DNA from: Phycisphaera mikurensis NBRC 102666
Lineage (GTDB): Bacteria > Planctomycetota > Phycisphaerae > Phycisphaerales > Phycisphaeraceae
Assembly: GCF_000284115.1 (NCBI RefSeq)
Contig: NC_017080.1
Span: 630,001 to 662,000, forward strand
DNA: 32,000 bases
Direction of reading: 5' to 3'
Shown: piece by piece, positions 12,324-32,000 of the stretch
Numbering within the stretch: the first letter of the stretch is position 1
How the letters are laid out: each line of letters begins with the position of its first letter
Notes under the pieces: generated by a model
The model's database searches: none
Seen by the model: only the letters and a program-made list of their open reading frames with translations
What the model was told of the DNA's origin: nothing
Made by a program: the position numbers and the translations under genes

Positions 12324-12367
12324 GGCCCGCCACCGCCGCGCCCGCACCCCCCCCCCCGCGGCCGCCC

Positions 12368-27724: not shown

Positions 27725-27864
27725 GAGGCCCGACGCCTCCTGGAGAGGCGGTCGGGCCCGGTGCGCGGGCGGGCACGTGAACCGGGTCAGGCCTTGACCG
27801 GAGCAGCCCTAAGCGTCGTCCGCCCGGCGCCGCCGGTGTTCTGACCGTCTCTCCAGCGGGCCTC
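27725..27864 (+). ncRNA. ffs: signal recognition particle RNA (4.5S-like) candidate
   Basis: Long imperfect hairpin. A 14-bp stem pairs 27740-27753 with 27843-27856 (one G.U). An outer 8-bp stem pairs 27725-27732 with 27857-27864. Inner helices are CCGG/CCGG and GGGCGG/CCGCCC. The apical region ACCGGGUCAGG-CCUUGACCGG-AGCAGCCCUAAG aligns with E. coli 4.5S ACCAGGUCAGG-UCCGGAAGGA-AGCAGCCAAGG, with the same AGG/AGCA symmetric-loop residues, the same ACC asymmetric loop and the same 10-nt apex length. It sits directly upstream of dnaX, as scr does in B. subtilis. The apical loop is not GNRA and the ends are uncertain. Confidence 0.55.
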
Positions 27865-27913: not shown

Positions 27914-29116
27914 ATGGCTTACACGGTCCTGGCACGCCGGTACCGGAGCCAGCGGTTCGCGGGCGTGATCGGCCAGCAGCCGGTTGCCGAAACGCTCAAG
28001 AACGCCATCGCCTCGGGGCGGGTGGCGCACGCCTACCTCTTCTGCGGGACCCGCGGCGTCGGCAAGACGTCGATGGCGCGGCTCTTCGCCCGGGCGCTCA
28101 ACGCGCCCGATACGGTGGAGGACGCGCCCCGGGCGGAGGGCGTCGCGTACCCGCCCGAAGACGTGCAGGAACGGATGGCCCAGGCGATCATGTCCGGGCA
28201 GGACATGAACGTCGTGGAGATCGACGGGGCGAGCAACAACTCGGTCGACAACGCCCGGCAGCTCATCGCCAACGCCGGTCTGTCGCCCACCGCGAACGCG
28301 CTCTACAAGATCTACATCATCGACGAGGTCCACATGCTCTCGGGCGCGGCGTTCAACGCCCTGCTCAAGACGATGGAGGAGCCGCCGCCGCACGTGAAGT
28401 TCATCCTGTGCACCACCGAGGCGCACAAGGTTCCCCCCACGATCCAGTCGCGCTGCCAACGGTTCGAGTTCCGCGACATCCCGACCGCGCAGATCGCCGA
28501 GCACCTCCGCGGCGTGCTCGACGGGGAGCAGACCCAAGCCTCCGACGAGGTGCTCTGGCAGGTGGCCCGGCTCGGCCGCGGCTCGATGCGGGACGCGCTG
28601 TCGCTGATGGACCGCCTGCTCGCCACCGGGGAGAACCCGCTGACGCCCCGGGTGCTCAGCGACATGCTCGGGCTGCCCCAGCAGTCGCTGGTCACCGGGC
28701 TGGTCTCGGCGATGGCGGCCGGCGACCTGCCCGGCACGCTGGAGGGCACGGCCGAGCTGCTGGGCCGGGGCGTCGGGCAGGACCAGCTCACCGAGGTGCT
28801 CATCGAGTTCCTGCGCAACCTCATGCTGATCGCGGCGTGCGGCCCCGGCAGCGAGCTCGTCGAGCTCTCCGAGGACGTGAAGCCCGAGGCGGCGGAGCTG
28901 GCGGAACGCTTCGACGCCGCCGGGCTCGTGCACATGATGACGCTGCTGGAGAACCTGCAGCGGTCGGCGAAGAGCTCGCCCACGCCGCGCGCCCTGCTCG
29001 ACGCGACCGTGGTGCGGCTGGCGCTCTCCGAGAAGGTCGCCGACGTGGCGGGCCTGCTGGCCGGTCCGGGCGGTCCGGGCGGCCCGGACGGTCCGGGCGG
29101 AAAAAAAAAAGCCTGA
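27914..29116 (+). CDS. dnaX: DNA polymerase III subunit gamma (zero-frame product of dnaX, 400 aa)
   Basis: MAYTVLARRYRSQRFAGVIGQQPV, Walker A CGTRGVGKTS, Walker B YIIDEVHML, LLKTMEEPP and sensor QSRCQRFEF are present. The frame ends …GPGGPGGPDGPGGKKKA-TGA immediately after the A10 run. Confidence 0.9.
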   Translation: MAYTVLARRYRSQRFAGVIGQQPVAETLKNAIASGRVAHAYLFCGTRGVGKTSMARLFARALNAPDTVEDAPRAEGVAYPPEDVQERMAQAIMSGQDMNVVEIDGASNNSVDNARQLIANAGLSPTANALYKIYIIDEVHMLSGAAFNALLKTMEEPPPHVKFILCTTEAHKVPPTIQSRCQRFEFRDIPTAQIAEHLRGVLDGEQTQASDEVLWQVARLGRGSMRDALSLMDRLLATGENPLTPRVLSDMLGLPQQSLVTGLVSAMAAGDLPGTLEGTAELLGRGVGQDQLTEVLIEFLRNLMLIAACGPGSELVELSEDVKPEAAELAERFDAAGLVHMMTLLENLQRSAKSSPTPRALLDATVVRLALSEKVADVAGLLAGPGGPGGPDGPGGKKKA

Positions 29117-29742
29117 CCGCCGCTGAAGCGGCGGGGCGGCCGGCCCCGTCCGCACCGCCCGCTCCCCGCCCGCCCGCGCCCGCTTCCGTGCCGGCCGCGG
29201 TCCCGCCCCCGGCCGTCGCGGCCCCGCGCCCGCCGGCGGAGCGGGCGCAGCCGGACACCTCCGACCCCGCCGCGGCCTGGGCGGCCGTGGTCGCCGCGCT
29301 GGAGGCCCACAACGCGTGGGCCTGGCTCGACCAGGTCGCTCTCGCTTCCGGCGGCGACGACGCGGGCGTGCTGTGCCTGCGCATCCGCCCCCGGCCCGCC
29401 GCCGCCGGTGTTTCCCGCCTCGCCACGCCCGACCGACTCGATCGGCTCGCCGCGCAGGCCACCGCCGTCCTCGGCCGCCGCACGCGGATCACCCTCGTCG
29501 CCCACGAGCGGCCCGCCGCCTCCCCCGGCCCCGGCCCCGGCGCCGCCCACGCCGCCGCCGGGGCCCTGGGCAGCCGGGTCGCCGCCGAAGCCGCCGAGGC
29601 CAACGCCCAACGCCAGGAGGCGATGGGCCGCCCGCTGGTCCGGGCCGTGCTCTCGGTCTTCCCCGACGCCGTGCTCGTCCGGGCGGAGAAGAAGAAGCGG
29701 AGGCCGGGCGCCCAAGCGGAGCCGGAGGCCACGGACGCCTGA
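27914..29742 (+). CDS. dnaX: DNA polymerase III subunit tau, predicted only via -1 ribosomal frameshift or +1A transcriptional slippage at 29101-29110 (about 609 aa)
   Basis: The -1 frame (track ORF 28408..29742) reads …KKKSLTAAEAAGRPAPS…AAWAAVVAALEAHNAWAWLDQVALASGGDDAGVLCLRIRP…RTRITLVAHE…AMGRPLVRAVLSVFPDAVLVRAEKKK after the run. Before the run it is Arg/Gly junk. Confidence 0.55.
29101..29134 (+). promoter_or_regulatory. candidate recoding signal: A10 slippery run, 6-nt spacer, 7-bp GC stem with UGAA loop
   Basis: The A run is 29101-29110 and the spacer gcctga is 29111-29116 (it includes the zero-frame stop). CCGCCGC (29117-29123), tgaa, GCGGCGG (29128-29134) form the stem-loop. Confidence 0.6.
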
Positions 29743-29787
29743 TCCGCATCCCAAGACAATGAGAAGCGTCCGTCGATGCGCCGGCGG

Positions 29788-29893
29788 GGTGCCACGCCGC
29801 TTGCGGGGTGGGGTGTCCGCAGGGCACGCGGCCCGTCCGTGCCCGCGCTGGCGTCGCCTCCGGCGACCGCCACCTCGCAAGCGGCGTGGCACC
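29788..29893. repeat. 18-bp perfect inverted repeat enclosing two inner hairpins (between convergent dnaX and lpxA)
   Basis: GGTGCCACGCCGCTTGCG (29788-29805) pairs with CGCAAGCGGCGTGGCACC (29876-29893). Inner stems are GGGCACG/CGTGCCC (29822-29844) and GGCGTCGCC/GGCGA(C)CGCC (29850-29871). Confidence 0.6.
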
Positions 29894-29975
29894 GAGGGTG
29901 CCGAGTATCCGGCCCCAGGAGGTGGGTCGAAGGCGGAGCCCGCTTCCGGGCGGGCGTGGCACCCCGGCGTGCGGG

Positions 29976-30821
29976 TCACTTGCCCGGGTTCGTCCAGGCG
30001 TTGTCGCGGCGGAAGGTCTCGAGGTAGCGGCCGTGCTGGCCGCTGGCGGAGTTGCGGACCGAGGTCACCAGCCGCTGCACGTGCGGGTCGTGGGGGTACG
30101 CGTCCTCGAGGGCGTCGCAAGCGGCGTCGGTCCGGCCGACGCCGCCGGAGTCCGCCCGCGAGCTGTACAGCCGGCGGAACGCGTCACGCAGGTGCAGCCG
30201 GCTGTCGTCGCCGATGCCCTGCCGCTTGAGGCCCACGGAGTTGAGCCGGCGGACCTCGGCGGGGTTGCCCTCGATCGTCATGAACGGCGGCGAGTCCTTG
30301 GTGACGCGGGTCATGCCGCCGACGAAGCCGTGCCCGCCGATCGTCACGAAGTGGTGGATCGCCGAGGCGCCGCCCACGGTCACGTGGTCCTCGACGAGCA
30401 CGTGACCGGCCATCTGCACGCCGTTGGCGAGCACGACGTGGTTGCCGACGCGGCAGTCGTGGGCGACGTGCACGTACGCCATCAGCAGGTTGTGGTTGCC
30501 GACGCGGGTCTGGCCGCGATCGTTGGCGGTGCCCTTGTGCAGGGTCACGCTCTCGCGGATCTCGTTGTGGTCGCCGATCACCAGCTCCGTGTCCTCGCCT
30601 CCGAACTTCAAGTCCTGCGGATCGCCGCCGAGCACCGCGTTGGGCCAGACGGTGTTCCCCTCGCCCATCGTGGTGCGGCCGGTGACGGTGACGTGCGAGA
30701 TGAGCGTGGTGCCGGCGCCCAGGCGGGCCTTGGGACCGACCCAGCAGAACGGCCCGACGCGCGCGTCTTCCGCGAGCTGGGCGCCGGGTTCGATGATGGC
30801 GGTGGCGTGGATCGTGGGCAT
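29976..30821 (-). CDS. lpxA: acyl-ACP--UDP-N-acetylglucosamine O-acyltransferase
   Basis: Track ORF 29976..30941 trimmed to ATG 30821 (MPTIHATAIIEPGAQLAEDARVGPFCWVGP). It has left-handed beta-helix hexapeptide repeats and the C-terminal helical domain (…GLKRQGIGDDSRLHLRDAFRRLY). Confidence 0.95.
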   Translation of the reverse strand: MPTIHATAIIEPGAQLAEDARVGPFCWVGPKARLGAGTTLISHVTVTGRTTMGEGNTVWPNAVLGGDPQDLKFGGEDTELVIGDHNEIRESVTLHKGTANDRGQTRVGNHNLLMAYVHVAHDCRVGNHVVLANGVQMAGHVLVEDHVTVGGASAIHHFVTIGGHGFVGGMTRVTKDSPPFMTIEGNPAEVRRLNSVGLKRQGIGDDSRLHLRDAFRRLYSSRADSGGVGRTDAACDALEDAYPHDPHVQRLVTSVRNSASGQHGRYLETFRRDNAWTNPGK

Positions 30822-30862
30822 GACGGGGGCCCCGGGAGGAGCGTCTCCTTTCTCGACCGGCT

Positions 30863-32000
30863 TCAGCTCTGGTCGTCGTCGACCAGCATGAACTTCACTT
30901 CCGCCTCGGCGGCGACCTCCTCGGCGACGTAGGCCCGGCACCGCATGTGCGCGATGCGGCTGCGGATGCGGACGGCCTCGGCCTCGAGGATGAGCTGGTC
31001 GCCGGGGGTGACGGTGCGGCGGAGCTTGACGCGGTCCAGCGAGAGCATGATCGGAAGCTTGCCCACCTGCTCGAGGCTCTGGCCGATCAGCACCCCGGAG
31101 AGCTGAGCCATCGCCTCGACGATCAGCACGCCGGGCATGATCGGCGTGCCGGGGTAGTGGCCCTGGAAGAAGGGCTCGTTGATTGTCACGTTCTTGACGC
31201 CCAACGCCCGGCGGTCGCCGTCGATCTCCAGCACGCGGTCGACCAGCAGCATCGGGTAGCGGTGGGGCATCATCCGCAGCAGCCGGCGGACGTCGGCGAC
31301 GTTCGCGGTCCGGGCGAGCTCCATCCGGCCCTGCCGCCGCCCCTGCGTCACCAGCGCCCGGGCCAGCTCGTGGTTGAGGGGGTGGCCGGAGCGGCGTGCG
31401 ATGACGCGGCCGCGGATCGGCGAGCCCACCAGGGCGAGGTCGCCGAGGAGGTCGAGGATCTTGTGGCGGACCGGCTCGTCGGCGAAGCGGAAGGCGTTGC
31501 CGCCCAGCGGCCCGTCCTCGCCGATGACCAGCACCTCGGAGGGCGAGAGGTGGGCGAACAGGCCCTGGGCGAGGGCGGCCTTCGCCTCCGCCTCGAGGCT
31601 GAAGGTGCGCGAGGGGGCGATCTGATCGCGGTAGTCGTCGCCGTGCGTGCGGAACTGCTGCAGCTGCCGGCCGATCAGCGCGTTCTGCGGGCTGTAGTCC
31701 AGCTGGTAGGTGAGGTCCAGCCCGGGGTCGTGCGACGGCAGCGCCACCAGCTCGGCCTCGTCCTGCACGATGGTCACCGGCTCTTCGACCACCAGGTAGC
31801 GGCGGGCGGCCGCCTGCTCCCGCACGCCCGCCGAGGCGATGGCCTCGTAGAAAGGCAGCGCCGAGCCGTCGACGCCCGGCACCTCGGCCGCGTCGAGGTC
31901 GATGATCAGGTTGTCGATGGACCAGCCGGCGACGGCGGAGAGCACGTGCTCGCAGGTCTCGATCACCGCCTCGCCGAGCTTGAGCGCCGTCCGCCGCGAG
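30863..32000 (-). CDS. lpxC/fabZ: bifunctional UDP-3-O-acyl-GlcNAc deacetylase / 3-hydroxyacyl-ACP dehydratase (LpxC-FabZ fusion), 5'-partial
   Basis: The LpxC part includes …GHPLNHELARAL…. The FabZ part includes MPHRYPMLLVDRVLEID, NEPFFQGHYPGTPIMPGVLIVEAMAQ. The frame continues open to the right window edge. Confidence 0.9.
   Translation of the reverse strand, partial: SRRTALKLGEAVIETCEHVLSAVAGWSIDNLIIDLDAAEVPGVDGSALPFYEAIASAGVREQAAARRYLVVEEPVTIVQDEAELVALPSHDPGLDLTYQLDYSPQNALIGRQLQQFRTHGDDYRDQIAPSRTFSLEAEAKAALAQGLFAHLSPSEVLVIGEDGPLGGNAFRFADEPVRHKILDLLGDLALVGSPIRGRVIARRSGHPLNHELARALVTQGRRQGRMELARTANVADVRRLLRMMPHRYPMLLVDRVLEIDGDRRALGVKNVTINEPFFQGHYPGTPIMPGVLIVEAMAQLSGVLIGQSLEQVGKLPIMLSLDRVKLRRTVTPGDQLILEAEAVRIRSRIAHMRCRAYVAEEVAAEAEVKFMLVDDDQS

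What the first reader, a model, noticed from the sequence alone, without database searches (positions are those of the whole stretch)
29085..29742. dnaX: full-length tau reachable only by a -1 shift at an A10 run followed by a spacer and a GC hairpin (inverse of the E. coli logic)
The dnaX zero frame hits TGA at 29114-29116, two codons after an uninterrupted A10 run (29101-29110), which gives a gamma-sized 400-aa product. From the run onward only the -1 frame stays open, for about 210 codons to 29742. That frame encodes protein-like sequence (…WAAVVAALEAHNAWAWLDQVALAS…LCLRIRP…RITLV…RPLVRAVLSVFPDAVLV) resembling tau C-terminal regions. Upstream of the run the same frame is Arg/Gly junk, so the junction is at the run. 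The +1 frame also stops quickly (TGA 29124-29126). Six nt after the run lies a 7-bp all-GC stem with a UGAA loop (29117-29134), which is the classical slippery-spacer-structure layout. E. coli dnaX uses -1 frameshifting at A AAA AAG plus a stem-loop to truncate tau into gamma. Thermus thermophilus uses transcriptional slippage on an A-run. Here the genome-encoded frame would be the short form, and recoding would be needed to make tau. An A10 run built from AAA Lys codons is very unlikely by chance at this GC content.
Basis: partly seen in the sequence, partly recalled or inferred. Interest (0 to 1): 0.8.

Follow-up and report, generated by a model that had tools for sequence, protein, structure and literature searches.

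The report
Split dnaX needing A10 slippage for tau
The replication gene dnaX of Phycisphaera mikurensis is genuinely broken at a run of ten A's, so the short gamma protein is made by plain reading and the essential long tau protein needs a programmed one-base slip; this layout is known from other bacteria and here turns out to be shared by a whole bacterial class.

Summary
In dnaX of Phycisphaera mikurensis the zero frame stops two codons after an A10 run (29101-29110), giving a 400-aa gamma. Only the -1 frame encodes a conserved tau C-terminus, ending at 29742.

It is not a miscall. Three assemblies of the species all show A10.

All 80 related Phycisphaerae species examined carry an A-run at this site, A10 in nearly all. 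In 39 of 84 loci tau is in frame, in 42 it lies in the -1 frame, and in none in the +1 frame. The state has changed at least 15 times on a rough tree.

Both non-tau frames close within 15 nt of the run in 67% of loci, against 1% at control positions. The stops are built with otherwise rare codons.

A strong downstream hairpin is typical only of the rare A7/A9 variants. All five A7 variants also leave the third frame open.

I therefore favour transcriptional slippage adding one A, as in Thermus dnaX, as the main route to tau. In this genome -1 ribosomal frameshifting may contribute, because its hairpin sits at the classical spacing.

The reversed two-ORF dnaX with A10 was described by Antonov et al. 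2013 in other phyla. This is a new member of a known kind.

The parts
27914..29116 (+). dnaX zero-frame ORF. It encodes domains I-III plus a Gly/Pro linker and gives the 400-aa gamma-sized product ending ...GPGGKKKA*.
   Evidence: ORF list. Pfam DNA_pol3_delta2, DNAX_ATPase_lid and DNA_pol3_gamma3; TIGR02397 dnaX_nterm, E = 7.5e-109. 100% identical to the annotated P. mikurensis 400-aa protein P0002.
29061..29100 (+). GC-rich hairpin formed by 9-nt tandem repeats (GGTCCGGGC, encoding GPG repeats). Its 3' end abuts the A run. It is a possible nascent-RNA stimulator of RNA polymerase slippage.
   Evidence: MFE -31.8 kcal/mol, z = -2.9 against dinucleotide shuffles, the strongest of 84 loci. Direct repeats D1/D4. 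Across the clade this region is not clearly more structured than its composition predicts (median z -0.4).
29101..29110 (+). A10 slippery run, the recoding site. Zero frame reads GGA AAA AAA AAA, which contains A_AAA_AAA heptamers in phase.
   Evidence: The only A run of 6 or more in the window. The homologous run is present in all 83 related loci, and is A10 in 72 of 84 loci including the window.
29114..29116 (+). Zero-frame TGA that terminates gamma one codon (GCC) after the run.
29124..29126 (+). +1-frame TGA capping the third frame. It would terminate products of A9 and A12 transcripts (...KKKPDRR*).
   Evidence: Capping of both non-tau frames within 15 nt occurs in 67% of loci against 1.1% of control positions.
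29117..29134 (+). 7-bp all-G:C hairpin with a UGAA loop, 6 nt after the run. It is a possible -1 frameshift stimulator but is not conserved in the closest relatives.
   Evidence: -13.6 kcal/mol and part of the MFE fold. The window's downstream 45 nt rank 4th most structured of 76 A10/A11 loci. L001-L003 lack the 3' arm.
29110..29742 (+). -1-frame coding region for the tau-specific C-terminal part (210 aa, SLTAAE...EPEATDA*), fused to residues 1-399 after recoding to give a 609-aa tau.
   Evidence: PF12362 and NF011526 matches. 66% identity to the C-terminus of in-frame tau P0001, whose junction reads GKKKSLT. The tau C-terminal HMM hits only this frame. dN/dS is about 0.4 against L001 and L002.
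29689..29697 (+). Internal control: a second KKK in the tau frame, encoded AAG AAG AAG and preceded by the same GTCCGGGCGG as the slip site.
   Evidence: Direct repeat D3 and the sequence itself.

Best explanation
This is the dnaX gene of Phycisphaera mikurensis in the 'reversed' two-ORF configuration.

**How gamma and tau are made.** Faithful transcription and translation give a 400-aa gamma, comprising clamp-loader domains I-III. The essential 609-aa tau is made only when the reading frame moves to -1 at the A10 run.

**Most likely mechanism.** I favour programmed transcriptional slippage. RNA polymerase reiterates on the T10 template tract, whose length roughly equals the RNA:DNA hybrid, and produces a mixed mRNA population.
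- A11 transcripts, and to a lesser extent A8 and A14, put the tau C-terminal domains in frame (...GGKKKSLTAAE...).
- A10 and A13 transcripts give gamma ending in A*.
- A9 and A12 transcripts give a gamma variant ending in PDRR*.

**Possible stimulators.** A very stable hairpin abutting the run on its 5' side may promote realignment. The 7-bp hairpin 6 nt downstream, together with the in-phase A_AAA_AAA heptamers, may add some -1 ribosomal frameshifting on A10 mRNA.

**Evolutionary setting.** The whole class Phycisphaerae keeps this slippery tract. Because slippage feeds all three frames, single-base indels repeatedly flip which product is 'genome-encoded'.

**Shown versus inferred.** Shown here: the anatomy, its conservation, the selection on run length and on off-frame stops, and the reality of A10. 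Inferred: the slippage itself and its efficiency.

**Confidence.** The stated confidence (0.6) is for transcriptional slippage being the main route to tau. My confidence that tau requires some programmed recoding at this run is about 0.9.
For: 1. **The gene is real dnaX and the -1 frame is real tau.**
2. **The run is not a sequencing artefact.** Three assemblies of the species show A10. In addition, 36 of the 120 best homologue clusters are 391-419 aa long and almost all end right after KKK.
3. **The run is conserved across the class.** All 80 species loci from GTDB representative genomes have an A-run at the same place, and it is A10 in 72 of 84 loci, in both configurations. The in-frame and split states differ in the flanking bases (for example A10-G-CTGACC against A10-CTGACC), not in the length of the run.
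4. **Tau is in exactly one frame per locus.** The tau C-terminal HMM hits frame 0 in 39 loci, frame -1 in 42 and frame +1 in none. The state changes at least 15 times on a neighbour-joining tree. [quoted passage not shown] 2016 state for dnaX.
5. **Both non-tau frames are capped.** They close within 15 nt of the run in 67% of loci (control 1.1%) and within 30 nt in 85% (control 5%). The stops are built with codons that are otherwise rare: GTA, CTA, TTA or ATA follow the run in 42 of 81 loci, against 1-3% background use. Capping both alternative frames is the design described for Thermus dnaX transcriptional slippage.
6. **An internal contrast separates two designs.** The five A7 loci, and two of the three A9 loci, have strong hairpins a few nt (roughly 5-12) downstream (Mann-Whitney p = 2e-5 against A10/A11 loci). 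All five A7 loci leave the +1 frame open for 133-619 nt, as expected for pure -1 frameshifting. A10 loci lack any hairpin enrichment.
7. **The run is against codon usage.** AAA to AAG is 1 to 37 elsewhere in the window.
8. **There is precedent.** Antonov et al. 2013 inferred transcriptional realignment for two-ORF dnaX genes with A10.
Against: - No transcript or protein data exist, so the mechanism is inferred from sequence design.
- The A_AAA_AAA heptamers are in phase for -1 ribosomal frameshifting.
- The window has a GC hairpin at the classical 6-nt spacing, and its downstream region is the 4th most structured of 76 A10/A11 loci. A translational contribution cannot be excluded here.
- Tau is never found in the +1 frame. 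Both mechanisms predict this.
- The upstream hairpin is strong in the window but is not conserved beyond what composition explains across the clade (median z -0.4).
- The off-frame stops partly overlap conserved tau residues (KKK-L-T-A), so some of that signal could reflect protein constraint. The use of rare codons argues against this.
Confidence: 0.6

Rival explanations
1. Tau is made mainly by programmed -1 ribosomal frameshifting on faithful A10 mRNA. Tandem slippage of tRNA-Lys occurs on A_AAA_AAA, stimulated by the 7-bp GC hairpin 6 nt downstream and perhaps by the adjacent zero-frame stop. This would be an E. coli-type cassette with the roles of tau and gamma reversed.
For: - The heptamers are in phase.
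- The hairpin is at -13.6 kcal/mol at the canonical spacing.
- The window is the 4th most structured of 76 A10/A11 loci downstream of the run.
- A7 relatives that share the same 'GCCTGAC' context do combine a heptamer with strong hairpins.
- Tau lies only ever in frame 0 or -1.
- Atkins et al. 2016 mention a reversed dnaX candidate (Chlorobium phaeobacteroides, A7) with E. coli-like stimulators.
Against: - A heptamer needs only 7 A's, yet A10 is kept in 72 of 84 loci.
- The hairpin's 3' arm is absent in the nearest relatives L001-L003, and downstream structure is not enriched in A10 loci.
- The +1 frame is capped by a nearby stop in the window and in most A10 loci. That is unnecessary if only frames 0 and -1 are visited, and it is indeed missing in the A7 loci.
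- No Shine-Dalgarno-like GGAGG lies within 20 nt upstream of the run.
Confidence: 0.27
2. The A10 is a homopolymer sequencing or assembly error. The real gene would have A11 and an ordinary uninterrupted tau ORF.
For: - The closest uninterrupted relative, L001, has A11 followed by the same GCCTGACC.
- Homopolymers are error-prone on some sequencing platforms.
Against: - Three assemblies of the species agree on A10.
- 42 of 81 classifiable loci, including another complete isolate genome (CP087563, L064), have the split configuration.
- Split and in-frame genes both carry A10 and differ in flanking bases.
- 'A11-CTGACC' is never seen, while 'A10-CTGACC' is seen 10 times.
- L001 itself is a contig whose name suggests about 3x coverage.
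Confidence: 0.02
3. No recoding occurs. Either the C-terminal part is translated separately from an internal start as a stand-alone protein, or it is a decaying remnant and the organism manages with a gamma-only DnaX.
For: Gene callers annotate a separate downstream ORF of 165-184 aa in the tau frame.
Against: - The -1 ORF is intact and matches the tau C-terminal HMM in all 42 split loci (worst E = 2.5e-7), with dN/dS about 0.4 against close relatives.
- The predicted junction peptide KKKSLT is read in frame in relative P0001.
- The called internal starts lie 70-90 nt downstream of the run, inside the Pro/Ala linker.
- From established knowledge of the E. coli replisome, tau must tether Pol III alpha and DnaB to the clamp loader covalently. 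This was not tested here.
Confidence: 0.04
4. The run acts as DNA-level phase variation. Replication slippage toggles A10 and A11 within the population, and only A11 cells make tau.
For: - Long homopolymers are hypermutable.
- The frame state has flipped at least 15 times in the evolution of the class.
Against: - dnaX tau is essential, so an 'off' state would be lethal without recoding.
- Consensus assemblies of many species are fixed in the split state.
- Off-frame stop capping and A10 length conservation are not explained by this model.
Confidence: 0.03

Closest known systems
Two-ORF ('reversed') dnaX genes with a poly-A recoding site (Antonov, Coakley, Atkins, Baranov & Borodovsky 2013, NAR 41:6514, PMC3711429; discussed in Atkins et al. 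2016, PMC5009743)
   Same: - The dnaX N-terminal ORF ends right after a poly-A tract, and tau's C-terminus lies in the -1 frame, so recoding is needed for tau.
- Nine of their genes have exactly A10 followed by a nearby TGA or TAA (their Fig. S3).
- They too infer transcriptional realignment from sequence alone.
   Different: - Their examples are from Chlorobi, Bacteroidetes and one verrucomicrobium (Coraliomargarita). Their set held only two Planctomycetes genomes and none appears in their Fig. S3.
- Here the tract is class-wide in Phycisphaerae, with in-frame and split genes in roughly equal numbers and frequent switching.
- The A7/A9-plus-hairpin variants in this clade provide an internal contrast.
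Thermus thermophilus dnaX transcriptional slippage (Larsen et al. 2000 PNAS, as summarised in PMC1088944 and PMC5009743)
   Same: - A homopolymeric A run lies after domain III, and both non-tau frames are capped by nearby stops.
- The downstream context is the same: Thermus has GAG-A9-GCCTGA and the window has GGA-A10-GCCTGA.
- Slippage gives a mixed mRNA population and both tau and gamma.
   Different: - In Thermus the genomic frame encodes tau and slippage gives gamma. Here the genomic frame encodes gamma and slippage is needed for tau.
- The run is A10, not A9.
- Slippage is shown experimentally in Thermus and only inferred here.
E. coli dnaX -1 programmed ribosomal frameshift cassette (A_AAA_AAG, upstream SD-like element, downstream stem-loop)
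   Same: - The position in the gene is the same, with a Lys-codon slippery heptamer in phase and a stem-loop 6 nt downstream.
- Many in-frame Phycisphaerae genes even read A_AAA_AAG.
   Different: - The roles are reversed: the frameshift product would be tau.
- No SD-like element is seen upstream.
- The hairpin has 7 bp and is not conserved in relatives.
- The run is longer than the heptamer, and the third frame is capped.
Nascent-RNA stem-loop stimulated transcriptional slippage (Roseiflexus IS630; Penno et al. 2015 PNAS, as summarised in PMC5009743)
   Same: A stable GC hairpin lies immediately 5' of the slippage motif. In the window it is at -31.8 kcal/mol and ends at the base before the run.
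   Different: - The Roseiflexus motif is T5C5 and gives a specific one-base deletion.
- Here the motif is A10 and an insertion is needed.
- Conservation of the hairpin across the clade is not demonstrable beyond composition.

Membership tests
Reversed two-ORF dnaX (Antonov 2013 type) | ORF1 encodes DnaX domains I-III and terminates at or just after a poly-A tract | tested here: met
   ORF 27914-29116 with the run at 29101-29110 and TGA one codon after the run.
Reversed two-ORF dnaX (Antonov 2013 type) | The tau-specific C-terminal region is encoded in the -1 frame, overlapping the end of ORF1 | tested here: met
   The -1 frame 29110-29742 matches PF12362 and NF011526, is 66% identical to the in-frame tau P0001, and is the only frame hit by the tau C-terminal HMM.
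Reversed two-ORF dnaX (Antonov 2013 type) | The frameshift position and motif are conserved in related genomes | tested here: met
   42 of 81 classifiable loci are split at the homologous A-run.
Reversed two-ORF dnaX (Antonov 2013 type) | Both the tau and gamma proteins are actually produced | not testable with these tools
   This needs western blotting or mass spectrometry on P. mikurensis.
Thermus-type programmed transcriptional slippage in dnaX | A homopolymeric A/T run of about 9 nt or more at the tau/gamma junction | tested here: met
   A10.
Thermus-type programmed transcriptional slippage in dnaX | Stop codons close to the run in both frames that do not encode tau | tested here: met
   TGA at 29114-29116 and TGA at 29124-29126. 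Across the clade, 67% of loci close both frames within 15 nt, against 1.1% of control positions.
Thermus-type programmed transcriptional slippage in dnaX | An mRNA population heterogeneous in A-run length | not testable with these tools
   This needs cDNA amplicon sequencing with controls.
Thermus-type programmed transcriptional slippage in dnaX | Tau is encoded by the unslipped genomic frame | tested here: not met
   The genomic frame gives gamma. The window works like the Thermus system with the roles reversed.
E. coli-type dnaX -1 PRF cassette | An X_XXY_YYZ slippery heptamer in the zero-frame phase | tested here: met
   GG[A AAA AAA] AAA, with two in-phase A_AAA_AAA heptamers.
E. coli-type dnaX -1 PRF cassette | A stimulatory stem-loop 5-9 nt downstream that is conserved | tested here: inconclusive
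   The stem-loop is present in the window (29117-29134, -13.6 kcal/mol, 6-nt spacer). It is not kept in L001-L003 and is not enriched in A10 loci.
E. coli-type dnaX -1 PRF cassette | A Shine-Dalgarno-like stimulator about 10 nt upstream | tested here: not met
   The upstream 20 nt read cggacggtccgggcgg, with no GGAGG-like motif. The check was by inspection only.
Stem-loop-mediated transcriptional slippage (Penno 2015 type) | A stable nascent-RNA hairpin directly 5'-adjacent to the slippage motif | tested here: inconclusive
   In the window the hairpin is at -31.8 kcal/mol, z = -2.9, and abuts the run. Across the clade the median z is -0.4 and 14% of loci fall below -1.64.

The most novel reading that the evidence does not exclude
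Phycisphaerae may be a natural experiment in recoding. A whole bacterial class keeps dnaX on a slippery A10 tract, so that tau and gamma are both made whatever the genomic frame. Lineages have flipped at least 15 times between 'tau in frame' and 'gamma in frame'. A few lineages have shortened the run to A7 or A9 and acquired a strong downstream hairpin, and the A7 lineages have also lost the third-frame stop. That would mean they switched from transcriptional slippage to -1 ribosomal frameshifting at the same site. If confirmed, this would be the densest documented case of interchange between the two recoding mechanisms, and of role reversal, in an essential gene.
Probability: 0.45. Interest if true: 0.6.

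Novelty: new member of a known kind. Interest (0 to 1): 0.45.

Why it matters
**Annotation.** The P. mikurensis protein is deposited as a 400-aa 'gamma/tau'. In the split loci I checked, gene callers report a separate downstream ORF. The essential tau is therefore missing from the annotation of this genome, and 36 of the 120 best-matching homologue clusters are similarly gamma-sized. Automated completeness or pseudogene calls would be misled by this.

**Biology.** The data support the idea of Atkins et al. 2016 that when the shift efficiency is near 50%, one nucleotide change can swap which product is 'standard'. The roughly even split between the two states (39 to 42) and the repeated switching (at least 15 changes) fit that idea.

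**Mechanism.** The contrast between two designs gives a sequence-only diagnostic that could help tell transcriptional from translational recoding elsewhere:
- A10 loci have both off-frames capped and no hairpin.
- A7 loci have a hairpin and an uncapped third frame.

**Experimental handle.** P. mikurensis is a cultured strain, so the tau:gamma ratio and the transcript heterogeneity can be measured directly.

Tried and rejected
- **Sequencing error.** Rejected after finding identical A10 in two further assemblies and the split state in 42 loci.
- **Conserved downstream hairpin as the key element.** I folded the 45 nt after the run in 84 loci and compared them with windows from the same genes. 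A10/A11 loci show no enrichment, so the hairpin is not the clade's common denominator.
- **Conserved upstream hairpin.** The first comparison with other gene windows looked very strong (KS p = 4e-18). Dinucleotide shuffles showed that most of this is composition of the Gly/Ala/Pro linker (median z -0.4). I therefore keep it only as a window-specific feature.
- **Whole 71-nt fold around the site.** The z-score is only -1.0, which is uninformative.
- **Literature.**
  - No paper in the held library combines Phycisphaera with dnaX.
  - The Larsen 2000 paper is not held, so the Thermus details are taken from PMC1088944 and PMC5009743.
  - I could not establish from the held text whether any database already lists the P. 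mikurensis gene as recoded.
- **dN/dS of the tau C-terminus.** The value is about 0.4 against close relatives but is saturated or noisy against distant ones. It is used only as supporting evidence.
Full report
**What is there**

The window comes from Phycisphaera mikurensis. The 400-aa zero-frame product is 100% identical to that species' annotated DnaX, which sits on a 3.8-Mb contig.

The dnaX zero frame runs 27914-29116 and ends ...GGC GGA AAA AAA AAA GCC TGA. The A10 run is at 29101-29110. It is the only A run of 6 or more in a 32-kb window that is 74.8% GC and 12.5% A.

The +1 frame stops at TGA 29124-29126. The -1 frame is open to 29742. Joining residues 1-399 to the -1 frame gives a 609-aa protein with the junction GGKKK|SLTAAEAAGR.

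The N-terminal part carries the DnaX domains:
- Pfam DNA_pol3_delta2, the ATPase lid and gamma3;
- TIGR02397, E = 7.5e-109.

The -1 peptide is a genuine tau C-terminus:
- it matches PF12362 (E = 3.8e-4) and NF011526 positions 400-569 (E = 3.8e-5);
- it is 66% identical (E = 1e-52) to the C-terminus of an uninterrupted 595-aa tau, P0001.

**It is not chance and not a miscall**

Outside the run, Lys codons in five window genes are AAA 1 to AAG 37. A second KKK in the same gene (29689-29697) is encoded AAG AAG AAG, even though it follows the same ten bases as the slip site.

Two further assemblies of the species have the identical A10 and flanks. These are GCA_014207395.1 and a Logan assembly of run SRR12223476.

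**Relatives**

Of the 120 best homologue clusters, 36 are 391-419 aa long. Almost all of these end immediately after KKK or KKN. The other 84 are 486-685 aa long, and most read ...[E/Q]KKK[L/V][T/A]... in frame at the same place. P0001 reads GKKKSLT, which is the junction predicted for the window.

I fetched DNA for 80 different Phycisphaerae species plus three metagenomic relatives. Every locus has an A-run at the homologous site. The distribution is:
- A10 in 72 of 84 loci;
- A11 in 4;
- A9 in 3;
- A7 in 5.

A profile of tau C-termini hits exactly one frame in each locus. It is frame 0 in 39 loci, frame -1 in 42, and never frame +1. Three contigs were too short to classify.

A10 occurs in both states. 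The two states differ in flanking bases, for example GAA AAA AAA AAG CTG ACC against CAA AAA AAA AAC TGA. Homopolymer-length error therefore cannot explain the split genes. On a rough neighbour-joining tree the state changes at least 15 times.

**Which mechanism**

Three comparative signals bear on this.

- **Run length.** A10 is conserved, although a frameshift heptamer needs only 7 bases.
- **Off-frame stops.** Both frames that do not encode tau close within 15 nt of the run in 67% of loci, against 1.1% of control positions in the same genes. Within 30 nt the figures are 85% against 5%. The stops are created with codons that are otherwise rare. GTA, CTA, TTA or ATA is the first tau codon after the run in 42 of 81 loci, against 1-3% background use. 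Capping both alternative frames is the design described for Thermus thermophilus dnaX. There, RNA polymerase slippage on A9 yields mRNAs in all three frames (PMC1088944 and PMC5009743).
- **Downstream structure.** It is not enriched after A10/A11 runs, where the median percentile within the locus's own gene is 0.62. It is strong after A7/A9 runs (Mann-Whitney p = 2e-5). All five A7 loci also leave the +1 frame open for 133-619 nt.

Short run, hairpin and an uncapped third frame is what -1 ribosomal frameshifting predicts. Long run, no hairpin and a capped third frame is what transcriptional slippage predicts.

The window has A10 and both caps, so I assign it to the slippage design. An A11 transcript gives tau. 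A10 and A13 transcripts give gamma ending in A*. A9 and A12 transcripts give gamma ending in PDRR*.

**Caveats for the window itself**

- Its downstream region is the 4th most structured of 76 A10/A11 loci. The hairpin sits 6 nt after in-phase A_AAA_AAA heptamers. Some -1 frameshifting on A10 mRNA is therefore plausible.
- The hairpin's 3' arm is not kept in L001-L003.
- The window also has a very stable hairpin (29061-29100, -31.8 kcal/mol, z = -2.9) ending at the base before the run. It is built from 9-nt repeats. This resembles the nascent-RNA stem-loop that stimulates slippage in a Roseiflexus IS element (PMC5009743).
- Across the clade, however, upstream stability is largely compositional (median z -0.4).

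**Comparison with what is known**

Antonov et al. [quoted passage not shown] They found 17 such genes from 12 genera. Nine have A10, drawn from Chlorobi, Bacteroidetes and Coraliomargarita. The authors inferred transcriptional realignment.

Their Fig. S3 shows Thermus as GAG-A9-GCCTGA. The window reads GGA-A10-GCCTGA.

Their data set had only two Planctomycetes genomes, and no Phycisphaerae gene appears in their Fig. S3. No held paper combines Phycisphaera with dnaX.

The window is therefore a new member of a known kind. What appears to go beyond the published description is:
- the class-wide tract;
- the near 1:1 mix of the two states, with many switches;
- the A7/A9-plus-hairpin variants.

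**Verdict**

- The 'reversed dnaX' reading is supported.
- The emphasis on the hairpin cassette, and the implied novelty, are not supported.

My confidence that tau requires programmed recoding at this run is about 0.9. My confidence that transcriptional slippage is the main route is about 0.6, with ribosomal frameshifting as the main rival at about 0.27. I score interest at 0.45.

Noticed in passing
window 27750-27849 (+): A bacterial small SRP RNA (Rfam RF00169, 46.3 bits, E = 3.7e-7) lies 64 nt upstream of the dnaX start. This is the classic ffs-dnaX neighbourhood.
   Followed up: partly
window 29782-29969: Just after the tau stop there is a long, nearly perfect inverted repeat. Its arms are 29788-29811 and 29870-29893 (24 nt, 96% complementary, 58-nt loop). 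A second pairing partner for the same left arm lies at 29953-29969. It could be a terminator, a repeat element or an unannotated RNA; Rfam gave no hit there.
   Followed up: no
window 12347-12357: A C11 homopolymer, the longest run in the window, lies in a very GC-rich stretch between or among overlapping mechanical ORFs. Its significance is unknown.
   Followed up: no
window 29056-29100: About four tandem copies of a 9-nt unit (GGTCCGGGC) encode GPG repeats in the DnaX linker. They create the strong hairpin that abuts the A10 run.
   Followed up: yes
window 29677-29698: A 22-nt near-copy of the slip site occurs near the end of tau. It reads GTCCGGGCGG-AGAAGAAGAA-GC, against GTCCGGGCGG-AAAAAAAAAA-GC at the slip site, and also encodes KKK but with AAG codons (D3).
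   Followed up: partly
L023, L036, L061, L076, L078 (run at about 2920-2975 in each locus): Five Phycisphaerae species have A7 instead of A10. The run is followed, after 6-8 nt, by hairpins of -20 to -28 kcal/mol, and there is no nearby stop in the +1 frame. This looks like a switch to E. coli-style -1 ribosomal frameshifting at the same site.
   Followed up: partly
L002 / L003 (6597-7029) versus window 29743-32000: In the 86%-identical relatives a YbaB-family gene lies about 2.4 kb downstream of dnaX. In the window dnaX is followed instead by the inverted repeat and, on the opposite strand, by an ORF whose counterpart in L084 carries hexapeptide-repeat and Acetyltransf_11 Pfam domains, which I take to be lpxA, and then by a further opposite-strand ORF that I read as fabZ/lpxC-like from its sequence but did not test. 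Local synteny is therefore not conserved.
   Followed up: no
L001 (2770-2780): The only close relative with tau in frame has A11 with the same GCCTGACC context as the window. It comes from a 3,974-bp contig whose name suggests 3x coverage, so its run length should be treated with caution.
   Followed up: partly
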